Source: the human T2T-CHM13v2.0 reference genome, Homo sapiens
Strand: one strand, 5' to 3'
Length of the DNA stretch: 64,000 nucleotides
NCBI RefSeq assembly: GCF_009914755.1
Contig: NC_060934.1
Below, one piece after another: positions 37,654-47,300 of the stretch. The position numbers were made by a program, and so were the translations under genes. The notes beneath the pieces are model-generated. The model made no database searches. It was not told the origin of the DNA and was given only the letters and a program-made list of their open reading frames with translations. How positions within the stretch are numbered: position 1 is the first letter of the stretch; each line of letters opens with the position of its first letter.

Positions 37654-38942
37654 CAATCCCTTTGTTTCTTTAGGAGAGAAAGAAGCTTGCTCCCCAATCC
37701 CCTCTGCCCCACCATAGGGTTCAAGGAAACTGGCCCTCATAATTGTAAATTACCTATGAAAAAGACAGAGCCCTTGGCTCCCTTCCTGGCGAAAGCTTCA
37801 AGATCAGCAGTGATAGCGGAAATTAATGAAAGCGGCTGCTGAGCCCCTGGCCTGTTGGTGGCTGCTGAGATGAAAAGGCAGCAATTGAAGTCGGCTTTGG
37901 GGATGAGCATTCCGATAAGGATTTTTGTTTGGGATACGGTTATGACCTGTAGCATGGGCTCCAGCCAGGACTTAGGTTTCTTGGAACCGGTTCTGATTTG
38001 CTCACTAACAACAGTCTGCTTTTCTTTCAAAATATAACCTCTTTCCCTCTAATCTGACCACCTCATCCCCCAAGAAAAGAAATGCAGCCCTCCAAACACA
38101 ATACAGTAGTAGCCCAAGGTGACGCCAAATGTCTGAATCTCTCCCTCTTTTCTTTTTCTTCTTCTTTTTAGTAGCAGAATGAGGCTCAGTTGAACTCATT
38201 TTCTCTTTCATCTCGGCTCATCCCCCTTGGGCTGGTGTTAAACAGCTGTCATACAAGGGCTGCCCAGGAATCCAGTTATGAAACAAACCAGCCAGCCTTC
38301 TTAATTGTCCTCCTGCGACTGGACTAAATTTGTCATCCTAATTCTTGAGCACTTGAGTTCCTGGGCTGCAGGCTTGAGTGTCATTCCTGAACTTGGCCAG
38401 TTGTTTGCCCTCCGTGAGACCCTCTTGTAAACTGATTAGATGGCACTCAGGAGGCCACGGCGGGGCGGGTTGAGGGGGGCAGGACTGAGCTTGTTATAAA
38501 CAGAGATTTCTTATTTAGGTGGAAGGCAAAGTTTTCTCCTTACTGTTCCACTGTCTTCCTGAGAGAAATTAACACTCAAGTGGAAAGAACACATTCCACA
38601 TGGTACACGGACACATGTGTTTTGTTGCACATGAGGGCTGGGTTTTTGACTGTAAGTGACACTTCATTCTGTCAAGATTTAGAAGTATATTTTAAATTGA
38701 CATCAATGAATTTAACCGTCATGGTTTTGGATATTATTGTCAGCATCCCCCAACATCTATGGCATTATAGTAATTTTTTGCAGTATATTGTACTAAATGG
38801 TTTTTCTGTTGTCTTTTTGGGAAGTGAGTCCTTCTGAAATCTGTTTCCTTTATATTCTCAGCAGGTGAACCTTTTCTTTTCTTTTCAAAATACTTCAATC
38901 TCAGAGTCTTTCTTTGACTTCTTCTTTTCTTTCAAAGGCATG

Positions 38943-40458
<1,516 letters not shown>

Positions 40459-40615
40459 CTTTCTTACTTGATAGTTCAGATTTTAAATGTGATCATTTTT
40501 TCTTTGTTCACAACTCACCCACATATCCATGACATTTTATATCGATCCAGCCGAGGCACTTTCCAGAAACAGGTTCTTGATTCATCTTGAAGGAGCAGTT
40601 TATGGATGTAGCCTC

Positions 40616-41830
40616 TTAGAAATACCTGGTAATATCAGAAGATCCTGGAAGTAAATGAACCAGTGGTCTTCTCCCATTTGCCGTTTCTTTCTTTATAGTT
40701 GGCATATCGTCTTTAGGGGACTGTGGCAGAATTGCAGTATCTGTAGCTGCTTTGGGACAGATCTTTATGGGTTCCGTGTTCCCTCCTGGCATCTCAAGGC
40801 AGAAGAATGGACGCACGGGCTTTGAGGCAGACACGTGTGACTGTATATAGAAGGAAACCAACAGACCTTGGGAAATGAAATGGCTTTCAGGTCACAGACA
40901 AAGTTGGGTTCATATGGAGAACAATTCATTGTTGAGAACTGATAGCAACTTAATATTTTCCCTTGAGACGCAAGGGCTTCCCAGTACTCAAGGTCTGAAG
41001 ATATAGGAGACATTCCTTGACAATATACAGATTCCCTGCCAATACCCACAGGTGAGTCAGCTAACTCTCTTAATCCTACCTCCTCCCAACTGTGGCAGCT
41101 GGAAGGAAAGCCAGAGGAACCCAGGACATGAGCTGCAGAGATGAATGTTTCAAGGTTTTCTCTGGTGGTCTCTTTGAGGCATTTGTGCATCTGATGCTCT
41201 GCAAGTCATTAGAAAACACAAGGAAGCCATTGGCTATGGCTGGATCCAGACTCAAACATACACAAACCTCAGCCTCCAGCAGCGCCTGCCCAGCACAGGT
41301 ATCATCACTTTTGTCTCTGCTGCCAGCTGCCTCAGGGCCATGCTGATCTGGACTGTCTGTGTCTGAGCGATGTCAAGACACTGGAGACAAATGAAAAGAC
41401 CATCTTGGTTCACTCTCTCCAAATGCCGGAGACAAGAGAAACAGAAGTTGTATTTGCAGAATAGTAAATAGGGATCTTCAAAATAGGTCAGGCAAATGGG
41501 TCAATTTCTTTCTGAGTTTTTTTCTGCTATTGTCACATAGAAGTTCACCACCTCAGGGCAAATTCAGGCCTGTGTTCATGACTGCTCCAGCTCTCTGATA
41601 AGTCTGACCATGTTGCCCAGTGCCAGGTTCTCCTGAATCTGTTTCTCCCAGGAGTACTGAAAGCACTCGGGAGAGGTGATAACCCTGTTATCTGTCTTCA
41701 TCACCAACGAGTCAAGACACTTTAGACAGAGGCCATGTCTACAACTCATAGAGTAGGGTTCTTCACAGTAGTCCCTGCAACAGGGGGAGGTCAACAGGGC
41801 TTTCTGGAGTTCAGTCTCAGATGCTCTTAA
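40616..41830 (-). pseudogene. Intronless RFPL4-like (RING + B30.2/PRY-SPRY) pseudogene with two tandem RING modules
   Basis: RING1 (LQKALLT-SPCCRDYCEEPYSMSCRHGLCLKC...SPEC...LGNMVRLIRELE); RING2 in the same frame (*PICLTYFEDPYLLFCKYNFCFSCLRHLERVNQDGLFICLQC, 41378-41503); PRY (LSLDPAIANGFLVFSNDLQSIR, ~41250-41190); SPRY (VLGSSGFPSSCHSWEEVG, VGIGRESV, KPVRPFF, PIKICP). No B-box or coiled coil; multiple stops and frameshifts. Confidence 0.88.
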
Positions 41831-41899
41831 ATTGAGGTCCTCTCCTCAGGCTTCTGGCTCTGAAGATCCCCAGCATGTCTGAAGGATCTGGAGTCACTG

Positions 41900-41990
41900 C
41901 TGTGCTTTTAGTGGGGCAAGTGAAATCACACGTGTCCCCACATCCTTCTATACCCATTTCACCTACTCAGTCATTTGATTGGATTTCCAT
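41900..41990 (-). promoter_or_regulatory. Candidate proximal promoter of the RFPL-like pseudogene
   Basis: On the minus strand: AAATCCAATCA (41976-41986; one mismatch to DUX TAAYBBAATCA, also a CCAAT box), CACGTG E-box (41929-41934), TATA-like CTAAAAG (41905-41911), ~110 bp above RING1. Confidence 0.4.
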
Positions 41991-43070
41991 TAGAAAGCCA
42001 AGCAAAATAAGACAAGGAATTCACCCACCTTTGTAGGATGGGAGGATTTCTGGGTGCTAATTTTCAGGTTCTGTGTGTATTCAACCACCAAACAGAATTG
42101 TACTTGGTACCTCTTTTGTGTAGTAAGTATGCAAGGAGATATGGTATGTTTAATGGTGAACAGGAAAGACCTGGACCACAAAATATTAGCTGGTCTTTCC
42201 TTTTACAAATGGGAAGAATTTTCTTTATTTTGTTCATAGAACGTATTTCTTGGCATGATTAAAACATGCAAAAAGGTATGCATTTACAATTTTGCAGTGC
42301 GTACTAACAAAGGCAAACTCAGTGATATTTTTATTACATAAAACTGAAACAGTCAAAATTAATTATTTATGACAAATTCCTTCAAAAAATCTGCCTGTAC
42401 TGTGTAGTCCTAGAAATTTGTGGCCCCCTTTCTCCTCACTCATGTACTACCGAGTTAAATAATTAATTTGCAGTTTTGTATCCCTTGATAAAATGAAGGC
42501 TTCTCAAAAGTAGGAAGTTATCTGGATCAGATTGTGATCAAAATATGTAGAATACATGTGAGTCTCTGCTGTCGTCTCACTTACTCCTCCTTCTGTGTAC
42601 TGTTTCGACGCACCTCCTCTGGGAAGTCTTATCTGATCTTCCAGGTTAAGGATCCCCTTGTTTATGTTCTCATAGCCTGGCTTTGTCCTTCACAGCACAT
42701 ATTAAATTGTTGCTTTCTTAGTGTCTATCTTCCAGATAACCTCCATAATGGCATGAACTCCTTGTTTGCTTCTCAGGAAGGGATTCCAGCTTCAGGGTGT
42801 CACCTAATGCATTGCTCAATGAAAGGTTAATGGATTAACATTCATTGCACAGAGGTTTTATAAAAGACACTTATTTTTTTGTTTGTTTGTTTCCTTGCTT
42901 CTGTGTGTCAAGGCAAGGAAAGTGGTTTGTATGTATGTATGGAGAAATAATAATGTAGAAGGGGTGAGATTCTGGGGATTTGAGGGCTTAATTTTCTTCT
43001 AGGATCTTATCTATTAGTTGGCCTTATTAGGTTAACATAAAGTTAATCTTTCCATTAGCAATCATTGTAG

Positions 43071-43441
<371 letters not shown>

Positions 43442-43589
43442 GACCTTTTCTTTTTAATCACCAGAAGGCAATGCTGACATTCGTTGCCCAACCATCATAA
43501 CAGCACACTTGGCCGTTGTGGTCCTGGCAGGCGTATCTGTCTCATTAGATATTCACAGTTACTCGGAGCAGAGGCCTCCAAGAACTGAT

Positions 43590-44350
43590 GTGCATTTCTT
43601 GGGTTTATCCTGTATGGAGTTTGTCAAGCTGCTTGAATCTTTAGGGTTGTGTCTTTTGTCAAATTTGGGGAAATATTAGTTATTGTTTCTTCACTCTACT
43701 TTCTTTTTCTCTCCTTCTGGAAATCCTAGGACATAAATGTTAAAGCTTTGTGTAGTTCCCTGATGCTCTTTTTTTTTTCAGTCCATTTTCTCTCTGTTGC
43801 TCAGAAAAATAATTTCTATTTTTCTGTCTTCAAGTTTATTGTTTCTTTCCTCTTTCCTTTCCATTCTGGGTTTTTTTTTTTTTTTTTTGTTTTTTTTTTT
43901 TTTTTTGCCTAGCCTTTGAGTTTTTAATTTTGGTTATTTTATTTTTCAGTTCTAAAATTGCCAGATGGTTCTTTTTTTATATCTCCCATTTCTTTGCTAA
44001 GACTTTCTATTTTTTCATGTGTTTCAAGCGTATGCATAATTGCTCATTGAGACATTTTTATGACGGCTACTTTAAACTCCTTATCAGAAAATTCCAACAT
44101 CTGTATCCTCTCAGTGTTGGCACGTATTGTCTTTTCTCACTCAAGTTGGGATTTTCCTTGTTCTTGGTATCAGTGTTTTTTTAAAAAATTGTATCCTGGA
44201 CATTTGGGTACTGTATGACTCTGGATCTTATTTTGACCTTCTGTTTTAGCAGGCTTTCTCTTATATCATGATAGTGGTGGGGGACAGGGGAGGGGAGGTG
44301 CTACCTTGTTACTGCCAGGTGAGGGTGGAAGTTAGTTTAGATTGACACCC
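43590..44350 (-). mobile_element. Ancient L1M fragment (ORF1-proximal region)
   Basis: T-rich antisense L1M-like sequence (TCAAATTTGGGGAAATATTAG...TTTTCAGTTCTAAAATTGCCAGATGGTTCTTTTT). Confidence 0.6.
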
Positions 44351-47300
44351 TAAGAGGTTCCTTGCTACTGCTGGACAGTGGCACATGCAGAAAGGCTGAA
44401 ACCATCATCTCTTGAAGTTTCCCAGAAAATTGTTTTTGTTCATCTCCTTAGCAGAAAAGATGTGCAAAGTTTTGCATTTGTAATCCATTTGGTGCTGGGT
44501 GACAAGTCATAACCTTAGTAGTGTGCTGTGTGGAAGCCAGCGGGGCAGCATAGAAGGGGGTCTCTGAGAAGTGTGACCAGCCTCCTGAATCACAGTGTTT
44601 AAGGATCTATGGAAAAGTAAGGCCCTGTTTGTCCTGACAGTGACCTCTAAGGAGCTTGGGTAGAGGAGGATACCAGTAGGTAGTGGCCACACTCATTGTC
44701 CAGTGGGTAGTGGTAACATGACTCCAGGAATTTGACTCAGTTTGATGCAGGCCCAAATTTGGGCCTCAGTCAACAACATTGGGCTGCAGACCTTGGACAG
44801 CTGGGCCTGGGGCCTCAAGAGGTATTAACATCAGAGCCAGGTCTGGGCCCCATCCAGCAGACCTCTGGACACTAAAAATAAGGGCAAACATCTTGACAAC
44901 TGAACCAGTCAAAGAGTAAGTGTAGCACAGTAAGCGCAGGGAGACTCAGGGCAGTCAGTGGTCCTAAATCTATTGGATGGAACAGGGCTCCATGTTCCAT
45001 TGGTTGGAACTGCACTGCCATGATTGACTTAGGGCTGAGACTCCGTAAGACTGGCCACAAAGAGACCAGGAGCACTTATTATTATTATTGTTTATTACTT
45101 AGTTCACATTCTAGGAATGCCCTGTGTGTAAGAAGCTTGGATATAAATAAGCATTAATAATTCTTGAAATCAGAATGGAAAGCATTTTATATGCATTACC
45201 TTTTAAAAAATTTCATAATAATCCTGTGGGGTGGATAGAACATGTATTGTTATTCCATTTCCTGAGGAAAAATCTGGAGCTCAAAGAGATGAAAATGCAC
45301 TATACAAGTGAGTTAGGGAACTTGGCTCTTCAGACTCTAAAGTCTAGGGCTGTAGAGGGATATGCTGAGTGTCAGTCTCTGCAGCTTCCAGTAAGTGCCA
45401 GGTGTTTGCATAACTCAGTCTTTGCATCTGTAGACTAGAGCAACCATGACCTAGAGGACTATCTCTGCCATAGCGGGGTGAAGTTGCACCTAGTTTTACA
45501 TGTCTCAGAAAACTCACTGATGCTCCTACAAGCTGCTAACAATCATTCAGGAAACATTTATTAAGCATTCACTGTACGCTAATAACTGATGTTGGGAATG
45601 CAAAAGTCTTCTTTGTCCACATGGTTTCTCGGCTCAATGGTCTCATGGTCCAGTGCAGGGAGGCCAAGTTTAATGCGTTCCTAATGTAGTAGAAGGCAGT
45701 GGGGGAGATGTGCCTTGGGAGGCATTCACCTTCTGCTAGGGTTCCTGGACCAGATGGATAATCTTGGGGGTAAAGGAGGTGAACTTCTGGGTCCCTTTTA
45801 ACCATGCCTAAGAAGTTCCCTTCTATTAGTGGGTGTTACTGACCCACTCTCAGGACAGCCTGTGGACTGAGTTCTTGTCTCCATATTCTCCCCTAAGCCC
45901 CCTGTGAACCTGTACGTGCTGCTGTGAGATACTAGGCTGGAGCTGGAAACACAGGAATCCGCCTTGTCTGTACCGATGTGGATATGAGGACTTGGAAGCG
46001 AGGTTAGGAACAGGAAATTAAAAGCATCCTTTTATTCAGGCATCCGCTTAAAGGCTAAAGCTACAATAAAAAGGCTTCAGAATGGGCCTCCCTAAATCTT
46101 CATTCATTAATAACGATTATGATCATTATTCTAACAACAATAATAATACTAAACTCTGATAATGATCTTTTTGCATTTACCCAGTTCATCACCTCATTTG
46201 ATCTTCACAACACTGTGAGATGGACATTATCATCTCCATATTGCAGATGAAGAAATCAACCCTTAAAAACTCGGTGGGCTTGCCCATGGTGGCTGGCAGG
46301 AGAATGATGGAGCAGACTTCTCATTCTAGAGCTCTTCTCCTTTGCCTCTGTCATCATCTTCCCTTTGAACCCAGTCCTCTAAAACAGCTGCTTAAAAAAC
46401 AATAATGAAGAACAAAGAACTGACAATGAATAGACTGTCAGAAGACACCTTTGTTCTGCCTTCCCTCCCCTATGGTGCTCTGGGAACTTTTGACATGCTG
46501 GGCCTCCTTGATTTATACCAGTGAATCTGTTGAATGAGATTTCCAGTTGTAATAGTAATTTTTCTATTATAATAATGGTGATTATTATTAATTATAATGC
46601 TATTTTTATTAAAGCACAGGCCATATGTCAGCAATAGAAAAGCATTTGATTTTTCTTGTATAATCCTCACAACAATCCTATGGAGAACCTGTTATTATCT
46701 CCACTGTTACAATGAAGGATCTAAAGGTTATAGACATTTGAAACTTGCTTAAAACAAAATAGTTAATAAGGGGCAGAACCAGAGTTTGAAATTAGGTCTG
46801 TCTGTTTCTAAAGCCCATGCTTTTAACCCCAAAACCTAATTTCCTCCCACACTGATGCTAGGTTTGCAGAATCTGGACTCCGCCTCCATACCCAGAATGT
46901 GTCACGAACACTAAGAAGTAAAGGACATGCTGAATCTTCTCCCTTCAGTTTCCCTCTTGCCTTTGCTTCTCTGCAGGTTGCTGGTTGGGTGTTGTATGCC
47001 TGGGACCCATTTTAAGTCTGTGCTGTCTAAGATATGAGTGGTGTATTAAAAGTGAAGACACGTTGTTTGCTTCACGGGCATTAATCAATGGCAAATTAGA
47101 ATGCAATTGATATATGCATAAGACATGCACATTAATTCCAAATGTGTTTATCGTAATTAGTGCTGTTACAAAGAATACCAAAGGAATCAGGGAATGATTA
47201 GCTACACTTAGTATTTGTTATGGTTTGTTTAAAAAAGTTAAACATAACAATTAGTTGAGGTTTGAGGAGCGATGTTCCATTTGCATGGTGAACGTGGCTA

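What the first reader, a model, noticed from the sequence alone, without database searches (positions are those of the whole stretch)
40616..41830. Fossil ubiquitin-ligase gene with RING-RING-PRY/SPRY architecture (double-RING RFPL4-like)
Seen: manual minus-strand translation reveals a second RING hidden from the ORF track, in the same frame as the first (41794 to 41530 is exactly 88 codons): ...RING1...IRELEQS*TQA*ICPEVVNFYV-TIAEKNSERN*PICLTYFEDPYLLFCKYNFCFSCLRHLERVNQDGLFICLQC...ALRQLAAETKVM, then PRY (LSLDPAIANGFLVFSNDLQSIR) and SPRY. Established: RFPL proteins are RING + short helical linker + B30.2, with no B-box or coiled coil, and the ones I know have one RING. Inference: this is the decayed copy of a gene with two tandem RING-linker modules, possibly a covalent RING dimer, since TRIM-type RINGs usually need dimerisation. 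The two modules are highly diverged from each other yet remain in frame, suggesting the double-RING form was once under coding selection and may be intact in other mammals.
Basis: partly seen in the sequence, partly recalled or inferred. Interest (0 to 1): 0.82.

Follow-up and report, generated by a model that had tools for sequence, protein, structure and literature searches.

The report
Dead double-RING RFPL-like ligase gene copy
This stretch of a human SORCS3 intron is an old, broken copy of an extinct ubiquitin-ligase gene that carried two RING domains in a row before its target-binding domain, and it is one of several such dead copies in the genome.

Summary
On the minus strand, 41845 to 40616 reads RING1, linker, RING2, linker, PRY, SPRY. 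Both RINGs reach the Pfam cut-off (30.2 and 37.1 bits against 30), share one frame, and are broken by three TGA stops and at least three frameshifts.

It is not a lone fossil. The human genome holds collinear DNA-level relatives on chr2, chr9 and chr11, and fragments of the upstream part on chr10p and chr6. The chr2 and chr9 copies also have both RINGs. The spacing from RING1's last Cys codon to RING2's first is a multiple of three in all three copies, so the double RING belonged to the source.

Differences between copies fall evenly on the three codon positions and match non-coding identity. This locus has therefore drifted neutrally since the copies split and was probably never a working gene here.

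No intact parent exists in the human genome, and none was seen in the protein libraries. Other mammalian genomes could not be searched. The architecture matches the engineered, active TRIM21 RING-RING-PRYSPRY construct.

Verdict: a new variant of a known kind, of moderate interest.

The parts
41663..41785 (-). RING1 core (C3HC4). Ligands 1 and 7 are now Ser.
   Evidence: Pfam zf-C3HC4_4 at residues 21-61 of ORF 41576-41845, 30.2 bits. Aligns to TRIM21 RING 6fga_A, E 2.1e-6. The chr2 copy keeps Cys at ligands 1 and 7.
41504..41662 (-). Helix after RING1 and the inter-RING linker. It holds two TGA stops (residues 90 and 94 of P0001) and the leader of module 2 (TIAEKNSERN).
   Evidence: Translation. 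The PDB alignment extends through the helix after the RING. The chr2 copy reads L and R where chr10 has the two TGA.
41378..41503 (-). RING2 core. The first Cys codon is now TGA (41501-41503) and the His ligand is now Tyr.
   Evidence: Pfam zf-C3HC4_4 37.1 bits. TRIM69 RING 6yxe_A, E 3.5e-6. The chr11 copy has Cys and His at these two positions.
41256..41377 (-). Linker from RING2 to PRY. It ends at a 1-nt frameshift just before SLDP.
   Evidence: In the chr2 copy this stretch and PRY/SPRY lie in a single frame.
41160..41255 (-). PRY
   Evidence: Pfam PRY 22.2 bits, below cut-off. The homologous chr2 stretch scores 24.6 bits and matches the TRIM21 PRYSPRY at E 1.2e-15.
40619..41159 (-). SPRY, in three frame pieces, with a deletion of about 22 nt near 40904
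   Evidence: ORFs 40765-41205 and 40616-40891. PDB 2fbe E 1.6e-4. The deletion shows against chr2, chr9 and chr11 in the alignment.
40616..40618 (-). TAA stop codon, shared with the chr11 copy
40548..40615 (-). 3' tail homologous to the chr11 copy (untranslated)
   Evidence: blastn 77% over 79 nt
41846..44079 (-). Non-coding DNA upstream of RING1. It is collinear with the chr2 copy and partly with chr9, chr6 and chr10p. An Alu-like repeat at 43120-43433 interrupts it.
   Evidence: blastn. No Pfam domain in 19 ORFs. No Rfam family.

Best explanation
Window 41845-40616 (minus strand, antisense in a SORCS3 intron) is a non-functional relic. It is one of at least four dispersed human copies of an extinct RFPL-like E3 ubiquitin-ligase gene. 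That gene had one open reading frame encoding RING1, a helical linker, RING2, a helical linker and a PRY/SPRY (B30.2) domain, with no B-box or coiled coil. The others are on chr2, chr9 and chr11, and upstream-only fragments lie on chr10p and chr6.

**Shown**
- The domain order, and both RINGs scoring on HMMs.
- The paralogous copies, and the shared double RING with preserved phase.
- Neutral divergence of every copy since they split.
- Absence of any intact copy in the human genome.

**Inferred**
- The source was a working gene. The evidence is that both RINGs can be rebuilt with all eight zinc ligands across the copies, although the modules are only 25% identical to each other.
- The copies arose roughly at the time of the placental radiation. 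Each lineage is 11-16% diverged, and the chr2 copy was hit by an old LTR-like insertion. The dating rates are recalled, not computed.
- In the living protein the two RINGs formed an intramolecular RING dimer, replacing the coiled-coil or clustering-driven dimerisation of TRIM ligases. The engineered TRIM21 RING-RING-PRYSPRY construct works this way.

The locus has no present function.
For: **Domains.** See, and the PDB matches.

**Paralogues**
- chr2: 70.8% over 667 nt, 69.0% over 645 nt and 63.8% over 872 nt. The match is collinear from window 44079 to 40899.
- chr9: 59.7% over 1293 nt.
- chr11: 64.2% over 965 nt, plus 77% over 79 nt.

**Double RING in the relatives**
- Both RINGs are readable in chr2.
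- In chr9 the RING1 tail and RING2 are clear, but its RING1 core is badly decayed.
- Spacing between the last Cys codon of RING1 and the first of RING2 is 162 nt (chr10q), 153 nt (chr2) and 156 nt (chr9). The chr2 figure is taken after removing a 450-nt insert. All three are multiples of 3.
- That insert is a full-length high-copy repeat with TG..CA ends. It drew 4529 candidates; 40 were scored, and the 39 that were not the query itself matched at 71-75%.

**Zinc ligands.** Each of the 8 positions of each RING holds Cys or His in at least one copy.

**Neutrality**
- chr10q against chr2, differences per codon position: RING1 .19/.25/.26, RING2 .21/.28/.23, PRY/SPRY .29/.26/.30.
- Coding identity is 72-77% and upstream non-coding identity 73-75%.
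- Lineage-specific changes are even over codon positions in all four copies.

**No close living relative in the human genome.** The best non-fossil matches to the double-RING read-through have E 8.6e-6 or worse at 33% identity.

**Functional analogue.** Engineered TRIM21 R-R-PS rescues a TRIM21 knockout and outperforms R-PS at low concentration (PMC10105713, passages read).
Against: - No start codon can be placed. The RFPL4-equivalent start of module 2 reads ATA in all four copies, and module 1 has no in-frame ATG nearby in the human copies.
- Phase preservation in three neutrally drifting copies is only weak evidence. By my estimate it would arise by chance about 1 time in 9 to 1 in 27.
- The linker reads in different local frames in chr2 and chr9.
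- The RING1 core is only weakly detectable in the relatives: chr2 scores 14.8 bits, and chr9's only Pfam match lies in RING2.
- More than 2.2 kb of shared upstream non-coding DNA, plus copies that keep only the 5' part, do not fit a simple retrocopy model. How the copies spread is therefore unresolved.
- No intact double-RING relative was found in any library. Those libraries are not built from mammalian gene sets.
- The B30.2 tree does not place the fossils inside the RFPL crown.
Confidence: 0.6

Rival explanations
1. The source was a single-RING RFPL-like gene (RING2-PRY/SPRY). Module 1 was an already dead 5' fragment of another RFPL-like copy lying just upstream, for example in the 5' UTR or promoter region. 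It was copied along with the gene and never translated with it.
For: - The chr11 copy has RING2-PRY-SPRY but no detectable module 1. Its local alignment score upstream of window 41536 is 10, against 10.7 +/- 1.7 for shuffles.
- Module 1 ends with NFYVT, which resembles the KFQ-VD junction of the intact chr19 gene. Module 2 begins IAE where that gene begins MAE, as if a complete coding sequence started there.
- The modules are only 25% identical.
- No start codon was found for module 1.
Against: - All four copies have ATA, not ATG, at the would-be start of module 2. A RING2-only protein therefore had no start at that place in the source.
- RING1 and RING2 are in phase in 3 of 3 copies that have both.
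- Every RING1 zinc ligand survives in chr10q or chr2. That is unexpected if module 1 had been dead long before copying.
Confidence: 0.25
2. This chr10q locus is itself the original gene, a unitary pseudogene that worked here for a long time. The chr2, chr9 and chr11 loci are its dead offspring.
For: - It is the most complete copy, running from the upstream region to the stop codon and 3' tail.
- Its lineage-specific divergence is the lowest, equal with chr2.
Against: - Lineage-specific changes on chr10q are even over codon positions.10/.12/.12 and .13/.15/.13.
- It carries 3 stops, at least 3 frameshifts and a deletion of about 22 nt.
- Its divergence equals that of chr2, which carries an old repeat insertion.
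Confidence: 0.1
3. The second RING is a chance Cys-rich pattern, or a recent internal duplication within a dead single-RING pseudogene.
For: None beyond the low complexity of RING signatures.
Against: - RING2 passes three Pfam RING models, the best at E 3.5e-9.
- It aligns to the TRIM69 RING including the flanking helices.
- The same module is present in chr2, chr9 and chr11.
- The modules share only 15 of 59 residues, so the duplication is not recent.
Confidence: 0.01

Closest known systems
RFPL4-type genes of chr19q13.4, and RFPL1-3 on chr22
   Same: - A RING is followed after about 45 residues by PRY/SPRY, with no B-box or coiled coil.
- Module 1's linker aligns along the chr19 gene's linker (LG..V..I.ELE ... 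KFQ/NFY).
- These are the nearest rows by path length in the B30.2 tree.
- The best PDB match of the chr10 SPRY is the RFPL-like PRYSPRY 2fbe.
   Different: - The fossils have two RINGs, not one.
- They have no intron between RING2 and PRY, whereas the chr19 and chr12 loci have one.
- B30.2 identity to the chr19 gene is only 37-43%.
- The fossils lie outside the RFPL1-3/RFPL4 crown, with support 89/82.
- All copies are dead.
Named RFPL4A pseudogenes (for example RFPL4AP3 on chr4)
   Same: They are dispersed, broken relatives of RFPL-type genes in the human genome. RFPL4AP3 is named in PMC6906185 and PMC13702204 (passages read). A matching locus lies at C4:23496677-23496976.
   Different: - The chr4 locus is 57% identical to the chr19 B30.2 and nests with an RFPL4-type gene in the tree at 96/87. 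The double-RING fossils are a separate, deeper lineage.
- I could not check whether GENCODE or HGNC already name the chr10q locus. The RefSeq table supplied with the task lists nothing there.
Engineered TRIM21 R-R-PS (RING-RING-PRYSPRY)
   Same: It has the same domain order. It is active without B-box or coiled coil, and tandem RINGs give activity at concentrations where single-RING R-PS is inactive (PMC10105713, passages read).
   Different: - It is man-made from two identical TRIM21 RINGs. The fossil's RINGs are 25% identical and of natural origin.
- No activity data can exist for the fossil.
Class IV TRIM ligases (TRIM21, TRIM69, TRIM7 and others)
   Same: - The RINGs have TRIM-type flanking helices.
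- The B30.2 of the chr2 copy matches the TRIM21 PRYSPRY at E 1.2e-15.
   Different: - No B-box or coiled coil.
- The fossils lie outside the ten TRIM/BTN/pyrin-type B30.2 domains sampled, with support 98/98.

Membership tests
RING finger, C3HC4 (Pfam PF15227 / PF00097) | HMM score at or above the curated cut-off, for each of the two modules | tested here: met
   RING1 scores 30.2 bits against 30 on PF15227, which is borderline, and 18 against 21 on PF00097. RING2 scores 37.1 against 30, 23.6 against 21 and 26.1 against 25.2.
RING finger, C3HC4 (Pfam PF15227 / PF00097) | All eight zinc ligands present | tested here: not met
   In the window each RING keeps 6 of 8. RING1 has Ser at ligands 1 and 7. 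RING2 has TGA at ligand 1 and Tyr at the His ligand. Across the paralogues every position holds Cys or His in at least one copy.
RFPL (ret finger protein-like) | RING joined directly to PRY/SPRY, without B-box or coiled coil | tested here: met
   There are 42 residues from RING2's last Cys to SLDP, against 46 in the intact chr19 gene. No B-box or TRIM coiled-coil hit at E<=10.
RFPL (ret finger protein-like) | A single RING | tested here: not met
   There are two RING modules in one frame. The intact chr19 gene has one.
RFPL (ret finger protein-like) | B30.2 domain groups with RFPL B30.2 domains | tested here: inconclusive
   Tree of 21 rows. The fossils lie outside the 10 TRIM/BTN/pyrin-type rows (98/98) but also outside the other 18 rows, which include all RFPL-type rows (89/82). 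The tree is unrooted, and the chr10q row has a long branch of 2.09.
RFPL (ret finger protein-like) | RFPL-defining motif between RING and PRY (recalled from the RFPL literature) | not tested
   No model of the motif was available. Only a visual match of module 1's linker to the chr19 linker was made.
TRIM (tripartite motif) | B-box and coiled coil after the RING | tested here: not met
   No such Pfam match, and the linkers are too short.
Processed pseudogene (retrocopy) | Lacks the parent's introns | tested here: inconclusive
   RING2 and PRY are contiguous, whereas the chr19 and chr12 relatives have an intron there. However, the true parent is unknown.
Processed pseudogene (retrocopy) | Poly(A) tail, target-site duplication, and homology limited to the transcript | tested here: inconclusive
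   There is only an A-rich patch at 40470-40510, next to an L1 fragment. More than 2.2 kb of upstream DNA is shared with chr2. The chr6 and chr10p copies keep only 5' parts.

The most novel reading that the evidence does not exclude
Early placental mammals had a working family of RFPL-like E3 ligases with two different RINGs fused in tandem in front of a B30.2 domain. This would be a natural, constitutively dimeric 'R-R-PS' ligase that needs no coiled coil or substrate clustering for RING dimerisation. The gene left at least four dead copies in the human genome and may survive intact in some mammalian lineage.
Probability: 0.25. Interest if true: 0.6.

Novelty: new variant of a known kind. Interest (0 to 1): 0.38.

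Why it matters
TRIM-type RINGs are active as dimers. How ligases that lack a coiled coil, such as the RFPL proteins, achieve this is an open point.

A natural RING-RING-B30.2 gene would show that evolution tried the solution protein engineers later built into TRIM21 (R-R-PS). The fossils give sequences from which a testable ancestral protein could be inferred.

The finding also has a practical use. It defines a small, unmasked, low-copy repeat family of about 3.2 kb with at least six loci, which genome annotators could otherwise mistake for unique sequence.

As it stands, this is a dead relic with no present function, so the immediate biological weight is modest.

Tried and rejected
- **AlphaFold2 on the read-through P0001, without an alignment.** Mean pLDDT 33.5 and pTM 0.18, so it says nothing on an intramolecular RING dimer.
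- **The search for homologous proteins, three searches.**
  - the only hit, P0002, is a gene call on primate DNA with W at each TGA. It is an artefact and not an intact protein.
  - the 'longer' search with a profile of fossil ORFs found none among 2661 candidates.
  - the 'near' search returned only the input fragments and P0002.
- **Representative library.** 80 hits at E<=0.001.
  - The closest are short broken ORFs from other copies, of unknown species (P0006, P0007, P0009, P0010, P0027).
  - I scanned 10 of the 80 hits against Pfam, including most of those with several RING stretches. All have single RINGs, or B-box or coiled-coil segments between RINGs, or look like merged tandem TRIM models.
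  - P0029 is RING, B-box remnant, RING, coiled coil, PRY/SPRY at 26% identity. It is not the parent.
- **ESM Atlas.** The plain RING2 ORF gave only generic RING clusters.
- **Intron reading of the chr2 spacer.** Rejected, because the spacer is a full-length high-copy repeat.
- **Hidden extra domain or RNA upstream.** No Pfam domain in 19 ORFs, no Rfam family, and no long direct or inverted repeats in 38500-46500.
- **Homology of the upstream DNA to RFPL loci.** No match to the chr19, chr12 or chr22 loci apart from Alu-like repeats.
- **A vestigial second RING in the chr19 RFPL4-type gene.** None seen.
- **Literature.** Four searches found no paper on a double-RING RFPL or TRIM-like gene or pseudogene: RFPL4 + pseudogene + RING; 'two RING domains' + SPRY; RFPL4AP; RFPL + retrotransposition + B30.2 + evolution. 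Subscription journals are not covered.
- The own-genome search does not accept an alignment.
Full report
**1. What is in the sequence**

The window is human chr10 (T2T), inside a SORCS3 intron, and the feature lies on the minus strand.

- RING1 is in ORF 41576-41845 and RING2 in ORF 41252-41500. They share a frame, 115 codons apart.
- TGA codons lie at residues 90, 94 and 115 of P0001. The last one replaces the first Cys of RING2.
- The frame then shifts by one base just before SLDPAIANGFLVFSNDLQSIR (PRY, ORF 41076-41372). It shifts again into ORF 40765-41205 (SPRY) and once more into ORF 40616-40891. That last ORF ends at a TAA at 40616-40618.

Pfam results:

| Part | Model | Bits | Cut-off | E-value |
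|---|---|---|---|---|
| RING1 | zf-C3HC4_4 | 30.2 | 30 | 4.9e-7 |
| RING2 | zf-C3HC4_4 | 37.1 | 30 | 3.5e-9 |
| P0001 read-through | zf-C3HC4_4 | 53.6 (2 stretches) | 30 | 2.4e-14 |
| PRY | PRY | 22.2 | 27.5 | 1.1e-4 |
| Two SPRY ORFs | any | no match at E<=10 | | |

The PDB sequence search aligns module 1 to the TRIM21 RING (6fga_A, E 2.1e-6). It aligns module 2 to the TRIM69 RING (6yxe_A, E 3.5e-6). Both alignments include the helix that follows the RING. The SPRY ORF's best PDB match is 2fbe, an RFPL-like PRYSPRY, at E 1.6e-4.

**2. It is one of a family**

The whole human genome could be searched. The double-RING read-through has no close living relative: 12 matches at E<=0.001 among 82 candidates. 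Apart from itself, the best are other broken loci on chr9, chr11 and chr2, followed by ordinary TRIM/RFPL genes at about 30-35% identity.

DNA alignments show collinear homology.

- **chr2.** 70.8% over 667 nt (window 42184-41529), 69.0% over 645 nt (41534-40899) and 63.8% over 872 nt (43120-42306). Further blocks reach window 44079, interrupted by Alu-like repeats that differ between the loci.
- **chr9.** 59.7% over 1293 nt (42468-41263) and 60.5% over 324 nt (42881-42573).
- **chr11.** 64.2% over 965 nt (41536-40615) and 77% over 79 nt (40625-40548).
- **chr10p and chr6.** A DNA search with the upstream part found two fragments that carry only upstream sequence. These cover window 42630-42196 and 42706-41807, and neither has a RING or SPRY match.

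NCBI's mask, supplied with the task, does not cover 40469-43119. This is therefore an unmasked low-copy family of about 3.2 kb per unit.

**3. The double RING is ancestral**

- **chr2.** It reads MTCPFC..CLH.., then ..CPEC.., then the linker ..ICPGKVNFYGT. A 450-nt insert follows, then TITGKLRKESTCSIFLNYFEDL.. (RING2). The PRY/SPRY follows in one frame with three stops.
- **The chr2 insert is not an intron.** It is a complete copy of a high-copy repeat with TG..CA ends. The search drew 4529 candidates. Of the 40 scored, the 39 that were not the query itself matched at 71-75% identity, mostly end to end.
- **chr9.** It reads the RING1 tail, the linker, RING2 (RPVCL..CKGSFCSPC..), PRY and the start of SPRY.
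- **Phase.** The distance from the last Cys codon of RING1 to the first Cys codon of RING2 is 162 nt in chr10q, 153 nt in chr2 (insert removed) and 156 nt in chr9. All are multiples of three.
- **Stops.** Where chr10q has its two linker TGA codons, chr2 reads L and R. Where chr10q has TGA for the first Cys of RING2, chr2 and chr11 have Cys.
- **Ligands.** Pooling the copies, every one of the eight ligand positions of each RING holds Cys or His somewhere.
- **Divergence of the modules.** The two modules share only 15 of 59 residues. The second RING is therefore neither a recent internal duplication nor noise.
- **chr11.** This copy has RING2, PRY and SPRY. Pfam gives RING 30-32 bits and SPRY 31.2 bits. 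It has no detectable module 1: the local alignment score upstream of window 41536 equals that of shuffles.

**4. This locus evolved neutrally**

Between chr10q and chr2, differences per site at codon positions 1/2/3 are as follows:

| Region | Pos 1 | Pos 2 | Pos 3 |
|---|---|---|---|
| RING1 module | .19 | .25 | .26 |
| RING2 module | .21 | .28 | .23 |
| PRY/SPRY | .29 | .26 | .30 |

Coding identity (72-77%) equals that of the shared upstream non-coding DNA (73-75%).

In three-way comparisons I assigned changes to single lineages. Every copy then shows an even spread:

| Lineage | Pos 1 | Pos 2 | Pos 3 |
|---|---|---|---|
| chr10q | .10 | .12 | .12 |
| chr2 | .10 | .15 | .13 |
| chr9 | .18 | .22 | .21 |
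| chr11 | .17 | .15 | .17 |

None of the copies shows purifying selection since they split. The chr10q copy also has a deletion of about 22 nt in the SPRY core, which the other three lack.

The reading 'fossil of a gene that worked here' is therefore not supported. It is more likely one of several copies that were dead on arrival or soon after.

Per-lineage divergence of 11-16%, together with the old repeat insertion in chr2, suggests an age of the order of the placental radiation. This is inference from recalled substitution rates, not a computation.

**5. What the source was**

- **Architecture.** It is RFPL-like. An intact chr19q13.4 RFPL4-type gene has a single RING. It reads MAEHFKQASSCPICL..., a linker ending ..RMRKFQ, an intron, then VDMTLDVD....
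- **Linkers.** Module 1's linker runs parallel to that linker and ends ..VNFYVT. Module 2 begins IAEKNSERN(C)PICL, with ATA in all four copies where the chr19 gene has ATG.
- **Spacing.** The distance from RING2's last Cys to SLDP is 42 residues, against 46 in the chr19 gene. That leaves no room for a B-box or coiled coil.
- **DNA similarity.** Only the PRY/SPRY core is similar, at 57-61%, to the chr19, chr12 and chr22 RFPL loci. The upstream DNA is not.
- **B30.2 search.** A genome-wide search with the chr19 B30.2 domain gave 117 matches at E<=1e-5. The chr11 fossil is at 43% identity and the chr2 fossil at 37%. RFPL-type genes and pseudogenes are at 50-72%, including a locus at chr4:23.50 Mb that fits the named RFPL4AP3.
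- **Tree.** I built a maximum-likelihood tree of 21 B30.2 rows and dropped none.
  - The ten TRIM/BTN/pyrin-type rows form one group with support 98/98.
  - The RFPL-type rows and the three fossils lie outside that group.
  - The fossils are separated from all other rows at 89/82. Their nearest neighbours by path are the chr12 pseudogene and the chr22 RFPL genes.
  - The tree is unrooted and the chr10q row has a very long branch.
  - 'RFPL-like' therefore holds by architecture, while clade membership is unresolved.

**6. How it would have worked (inference)**

Each module has the N-terminal and C-terminal helices that form the four-helix bundle of TRIM RING dimers. This is established knowledge of TRIM RING structures, and the alignments cover these helices. 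The 51-54 residues between the RING cores would allow the two modules to fold back on each other.

Engineered TRIM21 RING-RING-PRYSPRY (R-R-PS) is active. It rescues a TRIM21 knockout and is ubiquitinated at low concentration where R-PS is not (PMC10105713, passages read). The most likely mechanism for the living ancestor is therefore a built-in RING dimer that delivers E2~ubiquitin to targets bound by the B30.2 domain.

A single-sequence AlphaFold model of the decayed read-through was uninformative, with pLDDT 33.5.

**7. What remains open**

- **No start codon can be assigned.** The rival that module 1 was an untranslated relic upstream of a single-RING gene is not excluded. I give it about 0.25.
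- **Phase evidence is modest.** Three in-phase copies are suggestive, but the chance probability is about 0.04-0.11 by my estimate.
- **The way the copies spread is unresolved.**
  - An intronless RING2-PRY junction and a 5'-truncated chr11 copy fit retroposition.
  - More than 2.2 kb of shared upstream DNA and 5'-only fragments fit DNA-level duplication.
- **An unexplained coincidence.** The chr2 repeat insert and the start of chr11 homology fall within about 7 bp of the module boundary.
- **No intact relative was found in the protein libraries**. The nearest entries are broken ORFs on short contigs. The multi-RING proteins I examined are TRIMs with B-boxes or coiled coils, or merged models.
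- **Coverage limits.** These libraries do not represent mammalian gene sets, and no other mammalian genome could be searched.
- **Literature.** Four searches found no description of such a gene or pseudogene family. I could not check GENCODE, HGNC or Dfam.

**8. Verdict**

It needs correcting in one respect, because this locus is a neutral copy among several and not the decayed gene itself.

This is a new variant of a known kind, and interest is moderate at 0.38. It would rise if an intact orthologue were found in another mammal.

Noticed in passing
window 38909-40468: An L1 3' fragment lies immediately downstream of the fossil on the same strand. It includes an ORF2-tail ORF at 39766-40326(-). 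It hides whatever 3' end or poly(A) the fossil once had.
   Followed up: partly
L018:5459-5908 (chr2) and L003:1525 (chr11); window equivalent 41529-41536: The chr2 copy carries a full-length 450-nt high-copy LTR-like repeat exactly at the RING1/RING2 module boundary. The chr11 copy's homology begins within about 7 bp of the same point. I have no explanation for this coincidence.
   Followed up: partly
L005 (C12:107843951-107847193); also C12:107853575-107854009: There is an RFPL-type locus on chr12 with a RING exon, an intron of about 1.2 kb and a B30.2 exon carrying one TAA. A second, more broken B30.2 copy lies 6.6 kb away. In the B30.2 tree this locus is the nearest row by path to the fossils.
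   Followed up: partly
L006 / L041 (C19:58876934-58878229): This is an intact single-RING RFPL4-type ORF. Its B30.2 is only 72% identical to two neighbouring chr19 copies (C19:58861947 and 58871955). I did not determine which named gene it is.
   Followed up: no
P0002 (protein library entry): This is a 235-residue 'protein' in a cluster of 12 member sequences on 35 contigs. It matches the window at 98% with W at every TGA. It is a gene call on primate DNA under a TGA=Trp code, so it is an artefact that could mislead homology searches.
   Followed up: yes
window 43120-43433 and 43760-43984: An Alu-like insertion interrupts the upstream homologous region; the chr2 copy has its own, different Alu-like insertions. 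The masked repeat at 43760-43984 lies inside blocks that are collinear with chr2, so it was probably already in the source unit.
   Followed up: no
L031 (C10:15651223-15651965) and L032 (C6:26977306-26978095): Two further human loci share only the non-coding upstream part of the unit (window 42706-41807). They have no RING or SPRY.
   Followed up: partly
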